A stretch of 64,000 nucleotides of DNA. It comes from a virus. The stretch spans positions 1 through 64,000 of the IMG/VR virus record IMGVR_UViG_3300017991_000064; one strand, given 5' to 3'. This document shows positions 1 through 55,631 of this stretch, piece after piece (within the stretch, counting starts at the first letter, position 1; each line of letters opens with the position of its first letter). The position numbers were made by a program, and so were the translations under genes. The notes below the pieces were generated by a model. The model did not search any database. It saw nothing but the letters and a program-made list of their open reading frames with translations, and was not told the DNA's origin.

Positions 1-466
1 CATCCTCATCAGCATCGGGTTCGGGTTGTGGTTCCTTGTCTACCTTTTCCTTCTCTTTCTTCTTTTCAGGTTCCTTCTCTTTCTTCTTTTCAGGTTCCTT
101 CTCTTTCTTCTTTTCAGGTTCCTTCTCCTGTGACTTCGTGGCCTTCTCAGATTCTGCCTTCTCGGCCTCAAGTTGATCCACCTTCTGAACCATTGTGGAT
201 GCTATGGAGTAGATAATTTCTTCAACCTCTTCGTACTCATACCCTTGACTCGTAGCCCAGGTATGAACAGTTTCATCAGAAGGTTTGGGATTCTTCCGTA
301 GAAAGGATAGAACCTTTTGTTTCATGATCCCACCGAGATCCTCCTCGGATTGTTCCTTCAATGAACGTTTTTTCCTACGTTCCTGCTTCTGTTCCAGCAC
401 CCTCGTCTTCCTTTCGGCCTGACGGTTCTTTCTTCTGGTGTTGGATTTCTTCTTTGTTTTCGACAT
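1..466 (-). CDS. Charged hypothetical protein, 3' end outside window (possible prohead core/scaffold protein)
   Basis: ATG at 466 with AGGAGG RBS; frame open to the window edge (MSKTKKKSNTRRKNRQAERK...EKEPEKKK repeats); absent from the ORF track because it has no stop. Confidence 0.8.
   Translation of the reverse strand, partial: MSKTKKKSNTRRKNRQAERKTRVLEQKQERRKKRSLKEQSEEDLGGIMKQKVLSFLRKNPKPSDETVHTWATSQGYEYEEVEEIIYSIASTMVQKVDQLEAEKAESEKATKSQEKEPEKKKEKEPEKKKEKEPEKKKEKEKVDKEPQPEPDADED
47..127. repeat. 24-bp tandem repeat, about 3.4 copies
   Basis: Unit TTCCTTCTCTTTCTTCTTTTCAGG at 47, 71, 95 and partial at 119; encodes (EKEPEKKK)n on the minus strand. Confidence 0.95.
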
Positions 467-530
467 CTTTTCCTCCTGATGAAGTTGTGGGAACAAAATA
501 TTTAATATAATCGAAAATCATTCTTTGGAA

Positions 531-1661
531 TTAGGTATCAAAATCAGCAAATGCATCAGGACTCTTTACAAAACCGTCCTTCAGCATAAGCCAGCAAAAG
601 TAACCTGCCTCTGAACCACCTTCTGGCGGATCAGTAACACTCGGGTAACAGGCTTCGATTGCATCTGGTAACGCTGACCAAAGATCCCAGGCGTCATTTC
701 TACAGAATTCGAAGTAGTCATCCAGGATCTTCATCTTAGGCACAAATTCACGGGCAGCCTCAACGTCCTCTTCATCGTAGTCTTCCTCATTGTATTGTTC
801 CAACAAGATCTCACCGATGGTCTTCAAAGCATCCTGCAGAGAAGCTTTTTGTTTAGGGGGTTTGAAGGCTCCTGCCTCATCATACTCAACATCTGTGACC
901 GGTTTCTTAGGATCAGGATCAGTTTGGAGCAAGAAAGTTAGTTCATCAGCGATATCATTATACTGACATGAGCCCAGTGCACCTATCTCATCATCGGGAT
1001 CATACTTCTCTCTCACTGGTCTTCGTTTCCTTTCCTTCATGAGGCCCATATTCTCTACTGATACTGGAAACCCGGCCTTTGATGCTGCCTCAATAGCGTC
1101 TATAATCTGTGCTCTCTGCTCATCACCCTTCACCGATACATCCATCACGAATGGATCATCATATCCACCGTAGCTTGATACAGTAAAGAGACTTGGAGAA
1201 TCTGATAGGTTCATTCCTCCGAACTGTTTCGCTAACCATACCATAAAACCCTTCATGAATGGAGCATCAAAGGCTACATAGAACTGAATATCCGTTAGAT
1301 CCAGATCCTCTACGGGTGTTTCAGCGATATCAGCATGATTTCCGTCAAGGAATGAAAAACTCCTTGCTACGTCCAACTTTTTGGCTGCTTCAATGACATC
1401 GTCAGCAGATCCCCATGGATCCATTTCCAACCAGGTATCTATATCATCAGCGGATGCAACACTTGAACTTATGTTCTCAGGCGGAACACCTAAATTTAAT
1501 ACTTTGTTCAGCGTGGTTAGATAAGCTTTCATAGCTTTCTCATCTGTACCAAATGATACGCCGATAGTATTGGGATCATCCATAGCCTCATTAACCTGAC
1601 TCTGTTTCCTTTTCTTCATGAACCCCGTGTTCTCTACAGATTCTCTTAAAAGATCAGACAT
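531..1661 (-). CDS. Acidic protein, putative internal head protein with N-terminal and internal leader motif
   Basis: 376 aa; leader MSDLLRESVENTGFMKKRKQSQVNE shared with the next gene; downstream of portal. Confidence 0.55.
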   Translation of the reverse strand: MSDLLRESVENTGFMKKRKQSQVNEAMDDPNTIGVSFGTDEKAMKAYLTTLNKVLNLGVPPENISSSVASADDIDTWLEMDPWGSADDVIEAAKKLDVARSFSFLDGNHADIAETPVEDLDLTDIQFYVAFDAPFMKGFMVWLAKQFGGMNLSDSPSLFTVSSYGGYDDPFVMDVSVKGDEQRAQIIDAIEAASKAGFPVSVENMGLMKERKRRPVREKYDPDDEIGALGSCQYNDIADELTFLLQTDPDPKKPVTDVEYDEAGAFKPPKQKASLQDALKTIGEILLEQYNEEDYDEEDVEAAREFVPKMKILDDYFEFCRNDAWDLWSALPDAIEACYPSVTDPPEGGSEAGYFCWLMLKDGFVKSPDAFADFDT

Positions 1662-2232
1662 TGTTATACTCTTAGATTCCCAGCGTTTTGCTATTTGTAT
1701 TCTTATCTACGAACTTACTCCAAGCATCCCAGTAGGCCTCTTCGGTCTTAGCATTTCCCATTTTCTGTAGGTCGGCCTTAGCTGATTGTACTGATGATGT
1801 CACTTCATATGGTAACCATTCTCCATCAATTCTTTCATCACCCTCTTGCATTACGTACACTATAGCTATTGAAAAAGTCTTTCCATCTCCCTCAACCTCT
1901 AAAAGAACCCCACTGGTAGAAAGCTCGTCATCATATTCATCAGATACACTGAAACGCTTAGAAAAAATCTTCTCCCAGCTCTTAATCTCTAGGCCAGCTT
2001 CAGCAAAAGGAGATTCCTCACCATTTATGAATTTCAGATCTTCTTCTTCTCCCCAATCATTATCAGACCCCCATGAGCTGTCAGAATAGAAAGCATCCAT
2101 GAAAGTTTCCACTTCAGGGGGGAAGGGTCGTTTTAGATTCTTGTACTCACCCTCGTTAACCTGACTCTGTTTCCGTTCCCTCATAAATCTTGTGTTCTCT
2201 ACAGATTCCCTTAAAAGATCAGACATTGTTAT
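1591..2232. repeat. 77-bp direct repeat (1591-1667 and 2156-2232) covering the 5' ends of two genes
   Basis: 69/77 identical by manual alignment. Confidence 0.9.
1672..2226 (-). CDS. Acidic protein, putative internal head protein
   Basis: 184 aa; leader MSDLLRESVENTRFMRERKQSQVNE; AGGAGG RBS. Confidence 0.55.
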   Translation of the reverse strand: MSDLLRESVENTRFMRERKQSQVNEGEYKNLKRPFPPEVETFMDAFYSDSSWGSDNDWGEEEDLKFINGEESPFAEAGLEIKSWEKIFSKRFSVSDEYDDELSTSGVLLEVEGDGKTFSIAIVYVMQEGDERIDGEWLPYEVTSSVQSAKADLQKMGNAKTEEAYWDAWSKFVDKNTNSKTLGI

Positions 2233-2244
2233 CCTCCTTATTGT

Positions 2245-2451
2245 TTATAAGATCCCATCCAGTATAGCTGGACGAATCTTTTCCTTGTTCTCAATCTGTT
2301 CATCTGTTAGCGATTCCTGATCATCCTCCATTTCAGTGGATTCAAATTCACCTTGGACCTCATATGAGCAACCTATTCTCTTCAATGCATTATCAACCAC
2401 TTCAACGAAGTTCTTTTCTTCACCATCTATTAAAATAGTGGGATCAGGCAT
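2245..2451 (-). CDS. Hypothetical acidic protein
   Basis: 68 aa, overlaps the upstream stop, RBS present. Confidence 0.7.
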   Translation of the reverse strand: MPDPTILIDGEEKNFVEVVDNALKRIGCSYEVQGEFESTEMEDDQESLTDEQIENKEKIRPAILDGIL

Positions 2452-2941
2452 TAAAATCCTCTGGGGACAACGATACTAGTATACGTACAAAGTAGTATCC
2501 CTTCCTACCCCTCCTAACGGGTTTCATACTTTTGGAATAGCTAGGTCTAGTCATACTCCCAGCTTGCACTTTAATTTGTTTGCCTTTAGATCCAGATCTG
2601 TGTTGCTCAGCCTCCCCAAAATCTAAGATAATGGTATAATATCCATCCTCTTCCTCAACCCGGGTATCAACTATTTCAGAACCAAACTCATCAGTAAGAT
2701 CAGCAACTATCTCATCTACCACGTATTGAGCATCTTTAATACTCCTATACTTTTGATTAGCAAATGAAGGACCACCGGCAAAGAGATTCTCACCCTCACT
2801 CCGAAGCTTATACTTAGGTGCAATCTCGGTCTCAATGAAATCCTTAACATCCAACATTAAAACTGACCCGCCACGGATATTATCTTCTGCTTCATTGATT
2901 GCTCCAGTGTTGCTCAGACATTCTTTCAGTAGATTACTCAT
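2444..2941 (-). CDS. Hypothetical protein with related leader (putative internal head protein)
   Basis: Starts MSNLLKECLSNTGAINE. Confidence 0.5.
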   Translation of the reverse strand: MSNLLKECLSNTGAINEAEDNIRGGSVLMLDVKDFIETEIAPKYKLRSEGENLFAGGPSFANQKYRSIKDAQYVVDEIVADLTDEFGSEIVDTRVEEEDGYYTIILDFGEAEQHRSGSKGKQIKVQAGSMTRPSYSKSMKPVRRGRKGYYFVRILVSLSPEDFNA

Positions 2942-3369
2942 CTCACCAACCTCTTCAAGTTATTTATATATGCCTTCAATGCATCACAGGCTTTAATTGC
3001 TTGGTTTAGATGGGACTCAGCATCCTGGTTCTTATCGAAGCTGATATCACCATATGCATTCTGGAGTTCATTGGTCATCTTCGTTACAGTTAGTTCAATG
3101 GCATCCTGGGTCTTCTTCACATTAGATCGTGATTCACCGAGATTCTTCTTTCTGGCTGTTCTCTCTATCATCTTCAGTTTCTGGAGGTTCATTTCCATCT
3201 CAGAGATAGATCTAGCAAGCTTATGAATATTGAGACCCCGTAGATTCCTACTGACTCTTTCTATTTTAATCAGCTCCTCTTTAATGGAGTTCCTTGCCTC
3301 CCTCACCTTCTGGTTCATAGTAAAGGAATCAGTATACTTCATTGTTCGAACTGCGTTGAGACCTGACAT
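2938..3369 (-). CDS. Coiled-coil hypothetical protein (head-assembly operon)
   Basis: 143 aa, GAGGAG RBS, directly downstream of portal. Confidence 0.65.
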   Translation of the reverse strand: MSGLNAVRTMKYTDSFTMNQKVREARNSIKEELIKIERVSRNLRGLNIHKLARSISEMEMNLQKLKMIERTARKKNLGESRSNVKKTQDAIELTVTKMTNELQNAYGDISFDKNQDAESHLNQAIKACDALKAYINNLKRLVR

Positions 3370-3388
3370 TGTTTTACTCCTCTCCTTA

Positions 3389-5185
3389 TTATATTATTTG
3401 AGATTTCTTTGCATCGCGTTGTTCACGAAGTTGGCGTAATCTACCACCGTGAGAGGCAGCCTTTGCTTTCTGGTGATCATCTGCAGTTACTTCAGTAACA
3501 ACCCCCATCGCTATATATTTATCAATGAGACCCAGCTCACTCTTCTTCAAAACAAATTTCGTCTCACCTATGTATTGATCCCTACGATTCCAATGAAAGA
3601 TAACTTCCTCGATGGCAGTATCAATCTGCTTCTCCCTTTCCCTACGTTCATGTAGTTTAGATTTAGGTTTCCTAGATTCAACAGGTTCACTTCCACCCTC
3701 AGCTTCTGCCTCAGCCTTCTCCTGTTCCAATTCAGTCCTCGTCTTCTCTATGGATTTCAACAGTTCATCAAAACCTGGAATCTTAAGGAACATAGCATTG
3801 ATGACCTTAATGAGATCAACCTTCTTTACCTCAGCAGTTTCTTCATCTACCAATCCCAACTCTGTAAGGAGTCCTAATGTTGATGATGCTGCTTCTAGAG
3901 AACTAATAAGTGCAGACTTCCTTTCCTCATCCTCAGCGGTAGATATGGTAGCCATCTGGATATCAAAATCATTTCTGAGATGACCTTTACCAATAGCATA
4001 AAGATGGAGAACAAATAGATCACGTAGGAATTTGCGATTGCAGGATTGAACTCTTTTGACAGCCTTAGCAAATCTGATCTCTAACCTAGTAAGTGATGAT
4101 TCTCCAATACCACCAGGTAGAGTTTCTTCAAGACCTAGGAAAGCCTTCGGTGTACGAAGTGCTCCGTATAGTTTACTTCTGAAGTATTCAATGTCAACGA
4201 TTTCACGAACATCTGCTTCACCACCAAGGGTGGTTACATTGAGGTTTCCCTTCTCTTCAAAGATGGGAACAAATACCCTTCTGATCATATCGAATTGTTT
4301 CGACTGCTGATCAAAGGTTTTAGGATCATTAAGATTTATGAAGTCATCTGTAGCAAAAGCTTCTTTCATCTCTGCTACTAAATCTTTAGCGTCCGTAGGA
4401 GTTAAACCTGTACAGTTAACACCGATGACCTCTTTCATTGGTGATCGTGTAATACGTGCAATCACCATTATGATCTCGAGGAGATTCAATACTTTGTATA
4501 TCTTCCTAGCATTATCAAGAACAGATACACCATAGTCAGCCTTTACCTTGTACTTCTTTCCCCTCCAATCAAACTGCACAAAGTTCCAGTAATCTTTCTT
4601 CTTAGGTTTTGAGAATGGAAGTTTGTAGTGATAGAAGTCTCTGGCAGCATAGAACTGACCATCGTAGTGATAACCCAGAACATAGTTACCTATGGATGCT
4701 TTCGAAACATCGCCTGGATGAATTTGAGTATCGATGAATTCGATTCCTCTATTGTCATCTCCGTAAAAGATCTCAACGAACATATCCCCGTAGAGACAAC
4801 CATTATAACAAACATCTGGGAGAACTTCATATAAATTGAGGCGTCTACAGAATTGTTCAAACTCTCCACAGAGAAATTCGTTATCTGACACGATCCAAAA
4901 GGATTTGCCAGTTTCATAACTAATCTGTGTTGCTTCCTCTGCATATAACTCTAACGCTGAGGAGATAATAGAATCTTCCAACATCCTATCATACTCTTTG
5001 TAGAGGTGTTCACGTCCATACTCAATTCCAAGGTAGGACTGAACCTGTTGCATGATATTGTCAAATTTTGGAATGGACGGTGGTGGACCCTGTGGATGTT
5101 GATCCTCTTTCTTAGGAGCTCTATCCACGAACAACTTCTCTTTTAGGCCTCGGAAGAAGCCTGAAAAACCTCTACCTCTACTCAT
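3389..5185 (-). CDS. Portal protein, T4 gp20-like
   Basis: DIEYFRSKLYGALRTPKAFL and LTRLEIRFAKAVKRVQ match the gp20-family conserved region; start moved to ATG 5185 behind GAGGTG. Confidence 0.9.
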   Translation of the reverse strand: MSRGRGFSGFFRGLKEKLFVDRAPKKEDQHPQGPPPSIPKFDNIMQQVQSYLGIEYGREHLYKEYDRMLEDSIISSALELYAEEATQISYETGKSFWIVSDNEFLCGEFEQFCRRLNLYEVLPDVCYNGCLYGDMFVEIFYGDDNRGIEFIDTQIHPGDVSKASIGNYVLGYHYDGQFYAARDFYHYKLPFSKPKKKDYWNFVQFDWRGKKYKVKADYGVSVLDNARKIYKVLNLLEIIMVIARITRSPMKEVIGVNCTGLTPTDAKDLVAEMKEAFATDDFINLNDPKTFDQQSKQFDMIRRVFVPIFEEKGNLNVTTLGGEADVREIVDIEYFRSKLYGALRTPKAFLGLEETLPGGIGESSLTRLEIRFAKAVKRVQSCNRKFLRDLFVLHLYAIGKGHLRNDFDIQMATISTAEDEERKSALISSLEAASSTLGLLTELGLVDEETAEVKKVDLIKVINAMFLKIPGFDELLKSIEKTRTELEQEKAEAEAEGGSEPVESRKPKSKLHERREREKQIDTAIEEVIFHWNRRDQYIGETKFVLKKSELGLIDKYIAMGVVTEVTADDHQKAKAASHGGRLRQLREQRDAKKSQII

Positions 5186-5266
5186 TATTTTACACCTCAA
5201 TTAATGTTCGGAAAATGTTTAATGGGGATTTAATGTGGGCGAATGCCCAATGAATGTAATGAAAGG

Positions 5267-5565
5267 ACCTTGTTAGTATGGAGATGTGCATAGATTTGAC
5301 CGGGGAGGTCGTCATAATTAAGGAGGTTTATGACTTATCCGGGTACTCTGGGGAATACCAGCGGGTTGGCTATTGAAGCTAAAACCTGAGGGTTAATAGC
5401 GAATGGTTGACAATGCCATGCTCAGGAGCCACCTTGAGGAATCAACCTTCAGGGAAACCGTAGCTACAACAACAGCTTATGATCTTATGCACACCTCAAT
5501 ACTAACAAGGTGATAGACACAGGTATAACAGAACTTCGAATGAAGAATCTGCTTATTCTGTGTTT
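5267..5565. ncRNA. Candidate structured non-coding RNA
   Basis: 26-bp closing stem 5267-5292/5486-5511 (24/26 Watson-Crick) enclosing at least 6 hairpins; further hairpin 5516-5565. Confidence 0.55.
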
Positions 5566-5602
5566 TACTGAAATCCAATGAATCTATGGTATTATCATAT
5601 AT

Positions 5603-5631
5603 ATTATACCATATATAAAGAATGACTTAAA
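5603..5631 (-). promoter_or_regulatory. Sigma70-type promoter
   Basis: TTTAAG-N17-TATAAT with extended TG. Confidence 0.6.
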
Positions 5632-5720
5632 CAGTTTGAAAATTACCAGGGACCGAATGGAACTATCCTATGAACACCTCCATATAAGAAATTTTTCACC
5701 AGGTACCAACTGAATTAAAA

Positions 5721-6110
5721 CTAGGTAGCTTCCGTATCATCATCAGAATGAAATTGTATCAATGAACCAAACGTATTGATAGCCTGGTCTGGTGACATCG
5801 CTCTATCATCAATGTAGATATCAGCGTATGGTTTTCTACCTTCATCTCCAGCAAACAGATCCTTGATATGTTGTGTGTTCTCATTCACTGCATCAAAAGT
5901 GAGACCCTGATTCTTACACCACATTACTGCATCAACAAGAGACTGCCCTTCTCTACATGTAAATAGAATGAGTTGGGTTCCTCTCCGCTTCAACACCTTC
6001 AGTTGACTGATTAACGGTCTATTCGGTTCTCCAATGTTTGGCCATTCATTACTACATAGTGTTCCGTCGAAATCCACTCCCAGAATAAGTGCTCTCTCTT
6101 TAATATCCAT
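5721..6110 (-). CDS. HAD-superfamily phosphatase
   Basis: DFDGT motif I, FTCR motif II, KPYADIYIDDR motifs III/IV. Confidence 0.85.
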   Translation of the reverse strand: MDIKERALILGVDFDGTLCSNEWPNIGEPNRPLISQLKVLKRRGTQLILFTCREGQSLVDAVMWCKNQGLTFDAVNENTQHIKDLFAGDEGRKPYADIYIDDRAMSPDQAINTFGSLIQFHSDDDTEAT

Positions 6111-6115
6111 TCTTC

Positions 6116-6529
6116 CTATGACTCCTCTCTTTCCTTCTTTCTTTTCTTATAGATTCTCATCATTGTTGTTCCAGCTTTGTCCAGGGCCTTCTGCAATGTC
6201 TTTTCAAAACCGGGTTGATCATCATACTTGAAATCCTTATCATGATGCAATTCTATTGAGAAGGTTATAGTTTCTATCGTTCGATCAGGACCTGTTGCGG
6301 TCTCTACTGAGAACTCCGGATTACCAAATGATTCACCAGAGTATTTATACATTGCCTGCGTATACCAACCAGAACCAGAAAGAGATACACCACCCTGGGG
6401 TACATATCCTTTTTCGATACCAAAGTTCACAACCTTCTCAACATCTGTAAACTTTCTAGCTGAAATGATCACGTATGGTTTAATGAAGATACCACCCAAT
6501 TCTTTACAGTAATTCGTATCACCCACCAT
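6116..6529 (-). CDS. DUF1737-like protein
   Basis: VNFGIEKGYVPQGGVS...YTQAM signature. Confidence 0.6.
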   Translation of the reverse strand: MVGDTNYCKELGGIFIKPYVIISARKFTDVEKVVNFGIEKGYVPQGGVSLSGSGWYTQAMYKYSGESFGNPEFSVETATGPDRTIETITFSIELHHDKDFKYDDQPGFEKTLQKALDKAGTTMMRIYKKRKKEREES

Positions 6530-9080: not shown

Positions 9081-9120
9081 TTATGCCTCCTCCTAATTGA
9101 TCGTTGAGTTTTATTGTTAA

Positions 9121-9178
9121 GGTTTCCTACTAGTCAAGTCTAGAAATTAAATGTACCCAGCAAAGAGTCATTCAGGCA
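9121..9178 (-). repeat. Dispersed multi-box element, copy A
   Basis: TGCCTGAATGA-N15-ATTTAATTT-N12-AGTAGGAAACC. Confidence 0.8.
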
Positions 9179-9179
9179 C

Positions 9180-9347
9180 CTATGATTTAATCTTCTTTTT
9201 GTTTTTAGGTGATCTATGAATATCGGGATTCTGGGCAGGAGAGAAGCAATCGAGATATTCACAATGTCCACATAGCTTACCGCTGTTACTGCAGTAGTTA
9301 CAGGGATTCTTTCCATATTCCCTAAGTTTCTTTGCTACTGGATGCAT
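9180..9347 (-). CDS. Small Cys-rich protein (55 aa), not in ORF track
   Basis: AAGGAG RBS; MHPVAKKLREYGKNPCNYC...CGHC. Confidence 0.6.
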   Translation of the reverse strand: MHPVAKKLREYGKNPCNYCSNSGKLCGHCEYLDCFSPAQNPDIHRSPKNKKKIKS

Positions 9348-26616: not shown

Positions 26617-26655
26617 AAATTTGTCCATAGAGATCCATTGGAAAATCGATCCTGT

Positions 26656-26713
26656 GGGAATCCACTTGGGAGATCACGAAATAAAATCTAGGTATCAAAT
26701 TTTCATTCTGGCA
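26656..26713 (-). repeat. Dispersed multi-box element, copy B
   Basis: TGCCAGAATGA-N15-ATTTTATTT-N12-AGTGGATTCCC. Confidence 0.8.
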
Positions 26714-26746
26714 CCCCCAATTATTTTAACAAAAAGGAATTAAATT

Positions 26747-46569: not shown

Positions 46570-48186
46570 ATGAAGCTATTGAGTTTGAAGATAAAGAATC
46601 TGAAATCAATTTCAACCCTCTCAATGAAATTGAAAGATGGTGTGACATTGATTGTAGGTGACAACAAGATAGGGAAGACATCAATTTTTCAGGCTATAAT
46701 GTTTGCAATCTATGGTGGTGTGAAGAAAAATCTCATTCGTCATGATCAAAAGCTCTGTGAATTAATGCTAGAGTTTGAACATGACCACCATCACTACAAG
46801 ATTCAACGAACATTCTACAACCGGAAAAAATCATCTGATGCTTCCTTATGGATCGATTCAATGGATGAGCCCTATTCATCCAGTACGAAAGTAATCAATG
46901 GTCTCGCTAAACAAAGATTCCACTTCTTCAAACTCTTTGGCTTTATCTACTATACTAAGGTTAACACCTGGTTAGTAGAACAGAAAATGAAAAAAGATCA
47001 ATTTCTTTTAGAACTCTTTGACCTGGACTGTATCAGTCAATTTGTTAAAGAGGGAGAATCCCACATACGGAAGTTCAGAAAAGATATTCCAGAGTGGTAC
47101 TTTGAATTTGATCCTGAAGAAAAACGAATTGAACTAGATGAGGCAAAAGAAAAGAGAGAAAAGTATACTGTGGCTCTAAACAAACTAGATCAGAAAATCA
47201 GTACACTAGATAAACTTCAGGCTAAGATTAAGTTCTATCGAAAACAAACTGAAGGGAAAGAAGTTGTAAAACCTGAAATGATCGAGGAGCTAGAAAATAA
47301 GTTGGAAGATGTCCAAAAAGAAATTGGCGCTATCAATCACCTAATGAAAGCCAAGAGTAAGATTCTGAATTTCACAAAATCCTATGACTCAGAGAACACC
47401 TGTCCACTTTGTCACTCAACAGTAAACCTAAAGAAGGTAGCAAAAGCAATTAAACAAGATCTGGCACAGTTAGAGGAGAAGGAGGAAGAATGGGAAAAGG
47501 TCAATGATCAAATTAATGAAGCTCTCAAGAAAATGATCACAAGGGATGACCTACCAGAAATTACGAAAACACAACTTAAAAAGAACCTTGATACCCTTCC
47601 TCTTCGTCAAAAAAGATCCAAGCTCCGCGAAAGAATGAGTCCCAACTCTGCCATAATTAGTTCTATAAAGGACGAGTTATATGCCCACAGAAAGATTCAA
47701 CGTCGGATAGAGGAGTCTAACATCAATGAGCTTGAAACCTCGGTGCAATCGCTATCAAGTACCATCAAGGTAATTAATGATACAATGAAAGCCAACCTCG
47801 TTAATATGATGAACGAATTCATGTTGGTAGCATATGAGGGTAATAGCTCTATACATCTTATTGATGGTCAACTCTATTTAGAAAACAGCAGAGGAGAGAA
47901 GATTGAGTTTGATGAGATGAGTGGAGCCAATAGCGAGATAGAAATTGTAATCTTTATCTTTGCTACATCACTGAACATTATTACAGGAAACAGAGTACTT
48001 ATAATGGATGAGCTCTTTAATACCCTAGATAAGAAAACTTTTCCTAGAGCGGTGAACCTCATCCAGTATGTTACCAAAAAGTACTTAACTCAACTCTTCA
48101 TTATCTCACATCGCAATGATTTTGAATATGACCATCTATTCACCAAATCAAAGAAAAGAGATAAGTGGGGATATATTTCTAACTAA
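46570..48186 (+). CDS. SbcC/Rad50 (gp46-like) ATPase
   Basis: GDNKIGKT, coiled coil with CPLC hook, MSGA, IMDELF, IISH. Confidence 0.9.
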   Translation: MKLLSLKIKNLKSISTLSMKLKDGVTLIVGDNKIGKTSIFQAIMFAIYGGVKKNLIRHDQKLCELMLEFEHDHHHYKIQRTFYNRKKSSDASLWIDSMDEPYSSSTKVINGLAKQRFHFFKLFGFIYYTKVNTWLVEQKMKKDQFLLELFDLDCISQFVKEGESHIRKFRKDIPEWYFEFDPEEKRIELDEAKEKREKYTVALNKLDQKISTLDKLQAKIKFYRKQTEGKEVVKPEMIEELENKLEDVQKEIGAINHLMKAKSKILNFTKSYDSENTCPLCHSTVNLKKVAKAIKQDLAQLEEKEEEWEKVNDQINEALKKMITRDDLPEITKTQLKKNLDTLPLRQKRSKLRERMSPNSAIISSIKDELYAHRKIQRRIEESNINELETSVQSLSSTIKVINDTMKANLVNMMNEFMLVAYEGNSSIHLIDGQLYLENSRGEKIEFDEMSGANSEIEIVIFIFATSLNIITGNRVLIMDELFNTLDKKTFPRAVNLIQYVTKKYLTQLFIISHRNDFEYDHLFTKSKKRDKWGYISN

Positions 48187-48194
48187 ATCATAGG

Positions 48195-48252
48195 TGCCAG
48201 GATGAAAATTTGGTACCGCTATTGAATTTGTTTACCATTATAGTAGAATCCC
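48195..48252 (+). repeat. Dispersed multi-box element, copy C
   Basis: TGCCAGGATGA-N15-ATTGAATTT-N12-AGTAGAATCCC. Confidence 0.8.
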
Positions 48253-48295
48253 AAAAGGTTAAATCTCCACGAAAACTTTTATAAGGAATGATAAC

Positions 48296-50185
48296 ATGTA
48301 TATAATCAAGAGTAAGAAGGGTTACCAAAGATTGGTCCCTAATGTAGAAATTGAAGAATACTTCTCGGAAGATTATTTCATAGGTAGAAGTACCAAACAA
48401 GGGAAACATATATTTCCTGTTTGGCGAAAAGCTTTGAAAACTATCTTCAGTAAAAAGCGTGGTAAAGACCTCATTGAGGTTATTGCTACTGGAGCTATTG
48501 GTTCGGGGAAGTCCACTCTAGCTATAATAGGATCATCTTTCATACTCTACAAACTTTTATTATTAGAAGATCCACATGATACCTTTGATATGATCAGAGG
48601 TCAACCTATCTTCTACCTATTCTTCAATGTAACAATGGATGCCAGTGAAGAAGGAAACATTCTGGCCCTAGGGAACCTTATACATGAAGCTCCTGTTTTT
48701 AGGGATCTAGGGGTTAGGTTTTCGAAGAATACGAAATACCCAAAACCCATCTTCCCTAAGAATATTCTACTAGCTCCCGGTTCTATGTTTGCTAAAGGTT
48801 TCGGGGCTGTTGGTAAGAATGTCATTAGCGGAATGATGGATGAGGTGAATGAATCTGATACAGACAAGAAACAAAGAAAGGCTCTCTTCACACAGAAGCG
48901 GGCATTGAAAATGTATAAAGCTATCATACGGAGAATGAAATCAAGATTTTTTGATGACCCTGATCAACCCTTCCTTAGGTACATTAAGCTCTTTCTCATT
49001 TCATCCAGACAAGAGAAAGACAATTTCCTTGAGGATTATATCGAGAAGGTAAAAGATAAGAAACATGTTATCGTTTTTGATTTCCCAGTTTGGGTAGCAA
49101 GATCCAAAAAGAAACTATGTGGGGATACATTCCATGTAGCAGTTTCTCCATTCATGGATCCCATGATAGTAAAGAAGAAGAAAGAAATTCCTGATGTTGA
49201 TGGAATCAAATCATATGAAATCCCTGTAGAGTATCTTCCAGCATTTGAACTAGATGCTCTATCCGCCCTTGCTGAGATAGCTGGTGTTAGTGTAAACAGG
49301 ATGAGGACCAGATTCTTTAGAAATAGAAAACTCCTCAAGGCTTCTTTCACAGAACGTCCTATCAATAGAGATATTCTAGAACTTTCTCTCTATGATGCAA
49401 TTCAGGTAGCATCATGTTTTAATATTAAGGAACTGATGAAACTCCGTGGACAAGCTATGACAGTACATATTGATGTTGGTTTGACTGGGGATAGATTGGG
49501 CATTGGTGCTGCTATGGTGGAATCATTCAAGCACCTAACTGTTTCTCCAGATGAGGAAGAGAAGTTAAGATTACTAAAAACAACTCTAGATCAAGAAAGC
49601 GATAGTCCTGTGGATGAGAAGAAACCAAATGAAGTACATGTACCTATAGTTCTAGTTCCCTTTGCTCTAGGTATTCAAGCTAAAGATGAGATTCCCCTAT
49701 TTAAGATTCGTGACTTTCTCTTCTTCCTCCGTGATGATATTGGAATACACTTCATCGAGGTAACTACTGATGGTTATCAATCTCGTGACCTACGACAGTT
49801 GTTAACAGTAGCTAATATTCCAAACAGAGAGTTATCCGTGGATAGAACGATGTCACATCATACAATCTACAGGACATGGGTCTATATGGGATTAGTAAAG
49901 AAAGTGAAGAATAGAATGCTATGGAAGGAGGAAAAAGAGTTACTAGAGTTGATGACAGATGCAAAGATTGATCATCCCGATGGAGGCAGTAAGGACCTTT
50001 CTGATGGAGTAACTGGAGCTGTAGCAAATCTTTTAATACAGAAACAGAGTAGAATGAACATGAGTCCACAGGCTAGGAAGGATCTCTACAGAATGATGCT
50101 AAACCAAGGAAGGTCAAAGACCACAGGATTGATGGATATGATGAGGCCCAAAAGGGGTGGTAACCCATTAAACTATAAAAAATAA
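48296..50185 (+). CDS. Terminase large subunit
   Basis: GAIGSGKS, MMDEVN, ISS, HIDVG, TDGYQS, KIDHPDGGSKDLSD. Confidence 0.9.
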   Translation: MYIIKSKKGYQRLVPNVEIEEYFSEDYFIGRSTKQGKHIFPVWRKALKTIFSKKRGKDLIEVIATGAIGSGKSTLAIIGSSFILYKLLLLEDPHDTFDMIRGQPIFYLFFNVTMDASEEGNILALGNLIHEAPVFRDLGVRFSKNTKYPKPIFPKNILLAPGSMFAKGFGAVGKNVISGMMDEVNESDTDKKQRKALFTQKRALKMYKAIIRRMKSRFFDDPDQPFLRYIKLFLISSRQEKDNFLEDYIEKVKDKKHVIVFDFPVWVARSKKKLCGDTFHVAVSPFMDPMIVKKKKEIPDVDGIKSYEIPVEYLPAFELDALSALAEIAGVSVNRMRTRFFRNRKLLKASFTERPINRDILELSLYDAIQVASCFNIKELMKLRGQAMTVHIDVGLTGDRLGIGAAMVESFKHLTVSPDEEEKLRLLKTTLDQESDSPVDEKKPNEVHVPIVLVPFALGIQAKDEIPLFKIRDFLFFLRDDIGIHFIEVTTDGYQSRDLRQLLTVANIPNRELSVDRTMSHHTIYRTWVYMGLVKKVKNRMLWKEEKELLELMTDAKIDHPDGGSKDLSDGVTGAVANLLIQKQSRMNMSPQARKDLYRMMLNQGRSKTTGLMDMMRPKRGGNPLNYKK

Positions 50186-54923: not shown

Positions 54924-55360
54924 AATCTAAAGGTGAATGAAACACTCTTCTTTCCATATTCAGTTCCAAAGGGGCTTACGACATTCCCAAGTTGTAAGCC
55001 TTCTTTTTTGTGTAGTTTGGTTAGGATTCTGTTCTCAAGGTGTGATGTAATACGATCACTCATCTCCAAACTCATTTCACGTCTCAATGATCTCTTCAGA
55101 TATTTTCCAAAGGCACCTAATCCCCTTGTCTTCATTTCGTATCTATGGTTCGTAATATAATCACCCGTTGCACTACACCAATGCTTTAACCTTTTGTACA
55201 TTACAAGTTCGGTAGCAGTATAGTATTTAGTAGCTCCACTTTCATCTGCTCTCTTCATCGCTTTTGTCGCTACTCTTATGAATTGTGTAAATATCAGTAG
55301 TACAATTAGATTGAAGTAATTCACAAGTACATCATTTAATAGATCACCAATTAATTCCAT
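54920..55360 (-). CDS. Membrane-anchored hypothetical protein
   Basis: N-terminal TM helix. Confidence 0.65.
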   Translation of the reverse strand: MELIGDLLNDVLVNYFNLIVLLIFTQFIRVATKAMKRADESGATKYYTATELVMYKRLKHWCSATGDYITNHRYEMKTRGLGAFGKYLKRSLRREMSLEMSDRITSHLENRILTKLHKKEGLQLGNVVSPFGTEYGKKSVSFTFRF

Positions 55361-55372
55361 TCAAACCCCCCT

Positions 55373-55430
55373 TGCCAGAATGACAAAACAGTACCAAGAT
55401 TTCATTTGTTAGGTTTACCAGTGGAAATCC
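55373..55430 (+). repeat. Dispersed multi-box element, copy D
   Basis: TGCCAGAATGA-N15-ATTTCATTT-N12-AGTGGAAATCC. Confidence 0.8.
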
Positions 55431-55442
55431 TTAACTTAAATC

Positions 55443-55631
55443 TCAACGACCCATATAGGGAAAAATTTGACCCTTTATTTTATCCCCTTTTCTCCTTCTC
55501 TTTAATTTCCTGGTGGTCATCCACATTGAGATCATTTGAATTACTACCATCGCTGAGACAAGAATGGTTCCACCCATAAGAATGTAAGCAATGGTTTTGA
55601 GACTCCATTCGAGTTCAATTATTGTCATCAT
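55443..55631 (-). CDS. Small membrane protein
   Basis: Single TM helix plus basic tail; AGGAGG RBS. Confidence 0.6.
   Translation of the reverse strand: MMTIIELEWSLKTIAYILMGGTILVSAMVVIQMISMWMTTRKLKRRRKGDKIKGQIFPYMGR

What the first reader, a model, noticed from the sequence alone, without database searches (positions are those of the whole stretch)
5267..5565. ~300-nt structured RNA candidate upstream of the portal, with SD / anti-SD loops
Seen: a 26-bp closing stem (5267-5292/5486-5511) encloses GACC/GGTC, GTCATAA/TTATGAC, GGTA/TACC, GCTATTGA/TTAATAGC, ATGGT/GCCAT, CTCAGG/CTTGAG and GGTTG/CAACC helices; a long interrupted hairpin follows (5516-5565). Most G-U pairs favour the + strand, where about 7 GGA motifs occur, several in loops, as in CsrB/RsmZ-type CsrA sponges. 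The only clear promoter (5631-5603) fires on the - strand, where one loop reads ACCUCCUUA, the 16S rRNA 3' anti-SD, as in C-rich sRNAs that block ribosome binding. Inference: a phage sRNA acting on translation, or a portal-linked structural or leader RNA.
Basis: partly seen in the sequence, partly recalled or inferred. Interest (0 to 1): 0.72.

Follow-up and report, generated by a model that had tools for sequence, protein, structure and literature searches.

The report
Orphan folded leader before phage portal
The largest non-coding gap of this 107-kb sediment phage, just upstream of its portal gene, holds a real and statistically exceptional 246-base fold closed by a 26-29 bp stem. It has no relatives anywhere searched, so its strand and function (most likely a leader RNA of the late-gene message) remain inferred.

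Summary
The structure is real. The 26-bp inverted repeat (5267-5292 / 5486-5511, 24/26 complementary, 28 pairs with a bulge) is the only one of its kind in the 106,874-bp genome. The 246-nt domain is the top RNALfold hit on the - strand (z -7.9) and second on the + strand (z -6.1).

Most of that signal is the closing stem. The interior alone is only modestly structured (z -2.7 on -, -1.6 on +).

New here:
- The two arms are two of three copies of a ~20-27-nt box (A 5665-5684, B 5482-5501, C 5277-5296 inverted) found nowhere else in the genome.
- Box B shares a 10-mer, ATTGAGGTGT, with the portal ribosome-binding site. That 10-mer occurs only at these two places in the genome.

The CsrA-sponge idea fails: GGA is not enriched (7 seen, 6.3 expected). 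There is no Rfam match and no homologue in any collection searched. Phages with 43-47% identical portals have a plain terminator plus promoter at this position, so covariation cannot be tested. No RNA data exist.

Best reading (about 0.37): a structured 5' leader or processing stem of the portal/late-operon mRNA on the - strand. A + strand sRNA, DNA-level protein-binding boxes and a functionless duplication remain open. The scan has reported structured phage leaders before on other DNA, but no look-alike of this sequence.

The parts
5267..5295 (-). Box C, the 3' arm of the closing stem P1 on the - strand RNA (box core 5277-5296, inverted relative to boxes A and B)
5482..5511 (-). Box B, the 5' arm of P1 on the - strand RNA; contains AUUGAGGUGU, identical to the portal RBS 10-mer
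5296..5481 (-). Interior of the domain. In the - strand MFE, four helices leave a multi-branch junction: a long arm (~5369-5473), a hairpin at 5340-5368, GUCAUAA/UUAUGAC with loop ACCUCCUUAA, and GACC/GGUC with loop UCCCC
   Evidence: interior alone z -2.66 (-), -1.59 (+)
5319..5327 (-). Loop ACCUCCUUA (reads UAAGGAGGU on the + strand, followed there by AUG at 5330 with only 3 nt spacing after GGAGG)
5304..5309 (-). Second ACCUCC on the - strand, spanning the 5' stem strand and loop of the GACC/GGUC hairpin
5515..5566 (.). Interrupted hairpin, significant on both strands; followed by UUUU only on the + strand
5603..5611 (-). Extended -10 promoter-like TGGTATAAT lying between boxes A and B. A start near 5596 would give a ~410-nt leader.
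5665..5684 (-). Box A, the third and more diverged copy of the box, direct with respect to B and upstream of the promoter-like site
5192..5201 (-). Portal ribosome-binding region ATTGAGGTGT; the 10-mer is repeated only in box B
3389..5185 (-). T4-type portal gene (PF07230), first gene of the structural block
5721..6110 (-). Upstream 129-aa gene with phosphatase-like PHROG matches; no predicted terminator after it

Best explanation
The 246-nt domain and the hairpin before it are part of a long (~410 nt) structured 5' leader of the portal/late structural mRNA, read on the - strand from the extended -10 promoter at 5611-5603 or from read-through of upstream genes. Inferred steps: boxes B and C pair over 28 bp and lock a multi-branch RNA domain. 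A near-perfect helix of that length is a natural double-strand-specific (RNase III-type) processing site, which would separate the portal message from upstream RNA and set its stability. Because box B copies the portal ribosome-binding site and box C is complementary to it, the stem may also keep an anti-RBS segment occupied so the portal start stays open. Shown: the fold, its uniqueness, the box family, the RBS repeat and the gene context. Inferred: transcription, strand, processing and any effect on translation.
For: - It lies in the largest non-coding gap of the genome.
- The gap sits at a module boundary. Auxiliary genes lie upstream. The portal follows, and the - strand block continues in the same direction across the contig ends to protease, major head and sheath genes.
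- All genes from 1 to 19.5 kb are on the - strand.
- The best promoter-like site in the gap is on the - strand.
- Phages with 43-47% identical portals start a new transcription unit at this position (terminator plus promoter).
- The domain is the top RNALfold hit on the - strand.
- The - strand fold is better defined: mean probability of MFE pairs 0.82 vs 0.59, ensemble diversity 40 vs 59.
- P1 forms in every - strand construct folded that contains both arms.
- The single transition difference between the arms is G-U on - and A-C on +. Box C's unique A also gives G-U with both A and B on the - strand.
- ATTGAGGTGT occurs only in box B and at the portal RBS. Three of the five - strand GAGGTGT in the genome lie in this gap.
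- Without the 5' arm, the MFE pairs box C with the portal SD.
- RNase III sites are enriched in 5' UTRs and intergenic parts of transcripts in E. coli (PMC6212723).
Against: - No homologue was found, so there is no covariation.
- Sub-domain z-scores are split between the strands.
- The hairpin at 5515-5566 carries a U-tract only on the + strand.
- The interior is only modestly structured.
- Thermodynamic modelling does not support an RBS switch. The SD is predicted mostly paired with or without the element, and the C:RBS duplex (-9.5 kcal/mol) is no better than shuffles (114/500).
- Box A lies upstream of the promoter-like site and has no role in this model.
- Three dispersed copies of one box also fit DNA-binding sites.
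- The phage encodes no RNase III, so a host enzyme is assumed.
Confidence: 0.37

Rival explanations
1. A free-standing + strand small RNA of about 300-340 nt, antisense to the portal leader. It would consist of the structured body 5267-5511 followed 4-5 nt later by a terminator-like hairpin plus UUUU, with SD-like GGAGG sequences exposed.
For: The hairpin at 5515-5562 is followed by UUUUAC only on the + strand. The + strand fold is second-best in the genome. Arm 5364-5478 is better and well defined on + (z -2.46, MFE equals centroid). A weak promoter-like match lies at 5189-5216.
Against: The + strand promoter match is poor (GAAAAT as -10). No other + strand gene lies within 19 kb. The overall + fold is less well defined. 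The terminator scan did not call this hairpin. GGA is not enriched. The P1 transition mismatch is A-C on this strand.
Confidence: 0.18
2. A DNA-level element: boxes A, B and C (and perhaps the RBS copy) are binding sites for a phage or host protein, such as operators that loop DNA around the late promoter or a packaging or replication site. On this reading the RNA fold is a by-product.
For: Three copies of one ~20-nt box occur only here, two direct and one inverted, flanking the promoter-like site at roughly -80, +100 and +310. An AT-rich stretch lies at 5570-5640. Box A has no role in the RNA model.
Against: B and C are complementary over 26-29 bp, far beyond the ~20 nt shared with A. The boxes have almost no internal dyad. 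They do not recur at any other regulatory region of the genome. No terminase or DNA-binding gene was recognised nearby. The interior and the adjoining hairpin are themselves more structured than chance.
Confidence: 0.2
3. A functionless relic: local duplication and inversion of the portal RBS region, or remains of a mobile element such as a MITE or invertible segment, tolerated in a non-coding gap.
For: The element is an orphan. It is absent upstream of the portal in related contigs. The arm/RBS identity suggests duplication. The inverted repeats resemble terminal or inversion repeats.
Against: No target-site duplication flanks the arms. It is single-copy in the genome. Exact arm patterns are absent from IMG/VR and from 185,579 species genomes. 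The phage has no serine or tyrosine recombinase, reverse transcriptase or TnpB. A gene-dense phage rarely keeps 0.5 kb of junk.
Confidence: 0.15

Closest known systems
RNase III processing stems of rRNA operons and phage T7/lambda mRNAs (own knowledge; PMC6212723 for E. coli target classes)
   Same: A long, near-perfect helix formed by sequences ~200 nt apart, enclosing a structured RNA inside a polycistronic transcript and sitting in a 5' UTR or intergenic position.
   Different: No cleavage data exist and no RNase III gene is in the phage. T7 sites are short local hairpins, and rRNA stems enclose a known stable RNA.
T4 gene e / soc / 49 leaders, where translation depends on which promoter made the transcript (own knowledge)
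   Same: A late structural gene whose RBS sequence has a complementary partner in the leader, so the choice of 5' end could decide whether the RBS is free.
   Different: Here the complementary segment is normally occupied by a decoy copy of the RBS (box B). Folding gives no clear switch, and no internal promoter was found.
P1/P7 c4 and P4 CI leader-embedded antisense RNAs (own knowledge)
   Same: One segment (box C) is complementary to several targets in the same transcript, including a ribosome-binding site.
   Different: No Rfam match to any family. The element is much larger, the phage has no integrase, and processing is unknown.
CsrB/RsmZ sponges and C-rich anti-SD sRNAs
   Same: Hairpin loops carry GGAGG on the + strand or CCUCC on the - strand.
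   Different: GGA is not enriched, there is no Rfam match, and no independent transcription unit is shown.

Membership tests
CsrB/RsmZ-type CsrA sponge | Many GGA motifs, above chance, mostly in hairpin loops | tested here: not met
   7 GGA in 245 nt vs 6.3 +/- 1.7 in 1000 dinucleotide shuffles, P = 0.46
CsrB/RsmZ-type CsrA sponge | Match to a curated covariance model | tested here: not met
   cmscan of 4500-6500 against all 4227 Rfam families at E <= 10 gave only four chance-level eukaryotic or unrelated hits
C-rich anti-SD sRNA | Unpaired C-rich/CCUCC loops | tested here: met
   ACCUCCUUA and ACCUCC lie in or at two adjacent hairpin loops of the - strand MFE and centroid
C-rich anti-SD sRNA | Own transcription unit with a terminator on that strand | tested here: not met
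   No terminator-like site on the - strand in 4900-6200; the domain runs into the portal gene
phi29-type packaging RNA | Match to the family model and a phi29-like small genome | tested here: not met
   No Rfam match; 106,874-bp genome with a T4-type portal
MITE / small transposable element | Terminal inverted repeats | tested here: met
   26-bp arms, 24/26
MITE / small transposable element | Target-site duplication and multiple copies | tested here: not met
   Flanks GAAAGG / TGATAG are not a direct repeat. Single copy in the genome. The arm pattern is absent from IMG/VR and GTDB genomes.
Invertible DNA segment | A site-specific recombinase, and both orientations present in reads | tested here: inconclusive
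   No resolvase or integrase in the phage. Only contigs of one run could be laid: one orientation, and minor forms are invisible.
RNase III processing stem | About two turns or more of nearly uninterrupted dsRNA | tested here: met
   13 + 12 + 3 pairs with one mismatch and one bulge; duplex -39.8 kcal/mol
RNase III processing stem | Staggered cleavage in vivo | not testable with these tools
   No RNA run holds the sequence
Retron / DGR / omega-RNA leaders | Adjacent reverse transcriptase or TnpB/IscB gene | tested here: not met
   No RVT_1 and no TnpB zinc-ribbon domain in the genome
Conserved structured RNA (any) | Compensatory base changes across homologues | not testable with these tools

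The most novel reading that the evidence does not exclude
The domain is cut out of the late-operon leader at its 28-bp stem to give a stable ~200-250-nt phage RNA. Its two adjacent loops display the 16S rRNA 3'-end sequence (ACCUCCUUA, ACCUCC). It would act in trans as a decoy anti-SD that binds Shine-Dalgarno sites of host or early phage mRNAs, a translation-takeover RNA made at the switch to late genes.
Probability: 0.05. Interest if true: 0.85.

Novelty: new member of a known kind. Interest (0 to 1): 0.35.

Why it matters
If the leader reading holds, this is one more case of a phage controlling its first structural gene at the RNA level. The layout is unusual: a decoy copy of the ribosome-binding site holds an anti-RBS segment in a 28-bp stem. 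It would be a compact test system for long-range RNA pairing and RNase III processing in an uncultured phage lineage. As it stands it is a single orphan sequence without expression or comparative data, so its value is as a well-defined candidate, not a result.

Tried and rejected
Homologue searches that found nothing:
- blastn (distant mode) of the gap against 50,697 phage records: no match.
- Portal-based searches: IMG/VR gave only 29-32% identical portals. JGI metagenomes gave two contigs at 43-47%. Their upstream gaps are 100-214 nt with no similar element.
- Exact patterns from the arms and interior: none in IMG/VR or in GTDB species genomes.
- Earlier scan notes by sequence: nothing.

Sequencing data:
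- No RNA holder is listed; one DNA run, probably the source sample.
- Laying its contigs showed one identical contig, with no joints or variants.

Other tests:
- A first genome-wide MFE scan with fixed 250-nt windows missed the element because no window held both arms. It was replaced by RNALfold with z-scores.
- The second most structured region (84,971-85,556) is coding and has no Rfam match.
- The RBS-switch idea was tested by pair probabilities and not supported.
- Start codons inside the arms (+ 5278, - 5291/5315) have no convincing SD. The + strand UAAGGAGGU-AUG has only 3 nt spacing and a 19-codon frame, so small-protein readings were rejected.
- The dispersed ~80-bp element of this genome is absent from the gap.
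- Literature searches gave no precedent specific to portal leaders.

Full report
**Context**

The window is the first 64 kb of a 106,874-bp IMG/VR virus record, and the one run that holds it is a sediment metagenome. All genes from 1 to about 19.5 kb lie on the - strand.

The ORF 3389-5185 (-) is a T4-type portal (PF07230, E 1e-41). It has an ATG at 5185 and GAGGTG seven bases upstream. The gene upstream, 5721-6110 (-), gives phosphatase-like PHROG matches.

The portal opens the structural block. The same strand continues across the contig ends to protease-like, major head and sheath genes. The 520-535-nt gap between the two genes is the largest non-coding stretch in the genome.

Yes for the fold.
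- The inverted repeat 5267-5292/5486-5511 is 24/26 complementary. It is the only repeat of that quality within 450 nt in 107 kb, and shuffles gave none.
- The 311-nt stretch has z -7.4 (+) and -8.6 (-) against dinucleotide shuffles.
- RNALfold with z-scores over the whole genome puts 5266-5511 first on the - strand (-7.92) and second on the + strand (-6.14).
- The adjoining hairpin 5515-5566 is significant on both strands.

The stem carries most of this signal. The interior alone scores z -2.66 (-) and -1.59 (+).

Sub-domains split between the strands:

| Segment | z on - strand | z on + strand |
|---|---|---|
| 5340-5368 | -3.66 | -0.2 |
| 5296-5342 | -2.10 | -1.56 |
| 5364-5478 | -1.27 | -2.46 |

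The - strand ensemble is better defined overall. The one transition mismatch in the stem is G-U on - and A-C on +.

GGA is not enriched, so the CsrA-sponge resemblance is not supported. Rfam gives nothing, even at E <= 10. The only Rfam hits in the window are the two tRNAs.

**New anatomy**

A duplex test showed that the 3' arm also pairs with a segment 400 nt upstream. That led to three copies of one box:
- A: 5665-5684 (-), TATGGAGGTGTTCATAGGAT
- B: 5482-5501 (-), TATTGAGGTGTGCATAAGAT
- C: 5277-5296 (+), TATGGAGATGTGCATAGATT

There are no further copies in the genome. B and C extend to 26-29 bp. A is more diverged and carries a 1-nt indel.

The extended -10 TGGTATAAT (5611-5603, - strand) lies between A and B. 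The 10-mer ATTGAGGTGT occurs only twice in the genome, in box B and at the portal ribosome-binding site. Three of the five - strand GAGGTGT fall in this gap.

**Comparative evidence**

None is available. The nearest portals are 47-49% identical. The two contigs I could read (L007, L008) have a classical terminator followed by a promoter and RBS in 100-140 nt upstream of the portal. More distant ones have 119-214-nt gaps.

No RNA run holds the sequence.

**Mechanism**

The position (start of the late structural unit), the gene orientation, the - strand promoter-like site and the better-defined - strand fold make a structured 5' leader the most likely reading, at about 0.37. P1 forms in every - strand construct folded that contains both arms.

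A 28-pair, nearly perfect helix is the kind of substrate RNase III cuts in rRNA operons and phage messages. In E. coli such sites are enriched in 5' UTRs and intergenic parts of transcripts (PMC6212723).

The RBS copy in box B and its complement in box C suggest that the stem keeps an anti-RBS segment occupied. With the 5' arm removed, the MFE pairs box C with the portal SD. However, pair probabilities show no clear switch, and the C:RBS duplex is no better than shuffles. That step is therefore only a hypothesis.

**Rivals**
- A + strand sRNA ending at the hairpin plus UUUU: 0.18.
- DNA-level binding boxes around the promoter: 0.20.
- A functionless duplication or mobile-element relic: 0.15.

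MITE, inverton, retron and omega-RNA readings lack their defining partners: no target duplication, no other copies, and no recombinase, reverse transcriptase or TnpB.

**Relation to earlier scan notes**

Notes on other genomes describe structured phage leaders, including a 190-nt nested repeat that locks a start codon. That note prompted a check of start codons in the arms here, and none is convincing. No note concerns a look-alike of this sequence.

**Verdict**

This is a real, statistically exceptional, orphan structured element. It is most likely a leader or processing domain of the portal mRNA. Its strand, expression and function are unproven. Interest is moderate to low until homologues or RNA data appear.

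Noticed in passing
window 9100-9200(-), 26635-26735(-), 48175-48275(+), 55353-55453(+): A dispersed ~80-bp intergenic element with conserved blocks (GTGCCAGAATGA ... GTACC ... ATTT ... AGTAG ... CTCAACGA) aligns at 73% mean column identity. The first block is over-represented in the window (13 matches vs 6 expected). It does not occur in the portal gap.
   Followed up: partly
whole genome G000: No large terminase was recognised by four Pfam terminase families (Terminase_6N, Terminase_6C, TerL_ATPase, Terminase_3) or by PHROG scans of 18 of the large ORFs (>=300 aa). The 629-aa ORF at 48296-50185 has no match in either library.
   Followed up: partly
G000 84971-85556 (-), outside the window (L010 1472-2057): Second most structured stretch of the genome by RNALfold (z to -7.0). 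It lies inside coding sequence (a 167-aa ORF and the 633-aa sheath-like gene) and has no Rfam match.
   Followed up: partly
G000 90877-90894 / 91191-91208, outside the window: The only other long-range inverted repeat in the genome (18 nt, 1 mismatch, 296 nt apart).
   Followed up: no
L007 2269-2411; L008 550-626: In contigs whose portals are 43-47% identical, the portal is preceded by a canonical hairpin-plus-T-run terminator and a TATACT-type -10. The portal therefore starts a transcription unit in this phage group.
   Followed up: yes
window 1-5185 and G000 59456-106874: The - strand structural block runs from the portal off the left end of the contig and resumes at the right end (protease-like, major head, sheath, fibres). 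This is consistent with a circularly permuted or circular assembly, although IMG/VR calls the record linear.
   Followed up: partly
window 5190-5315 (-): A 41-codon frame starts inside the domain and stops 4 nt before the portal ATG, just after its SD, with no SD of its own. It is probably not translated.
   Followed up: partly
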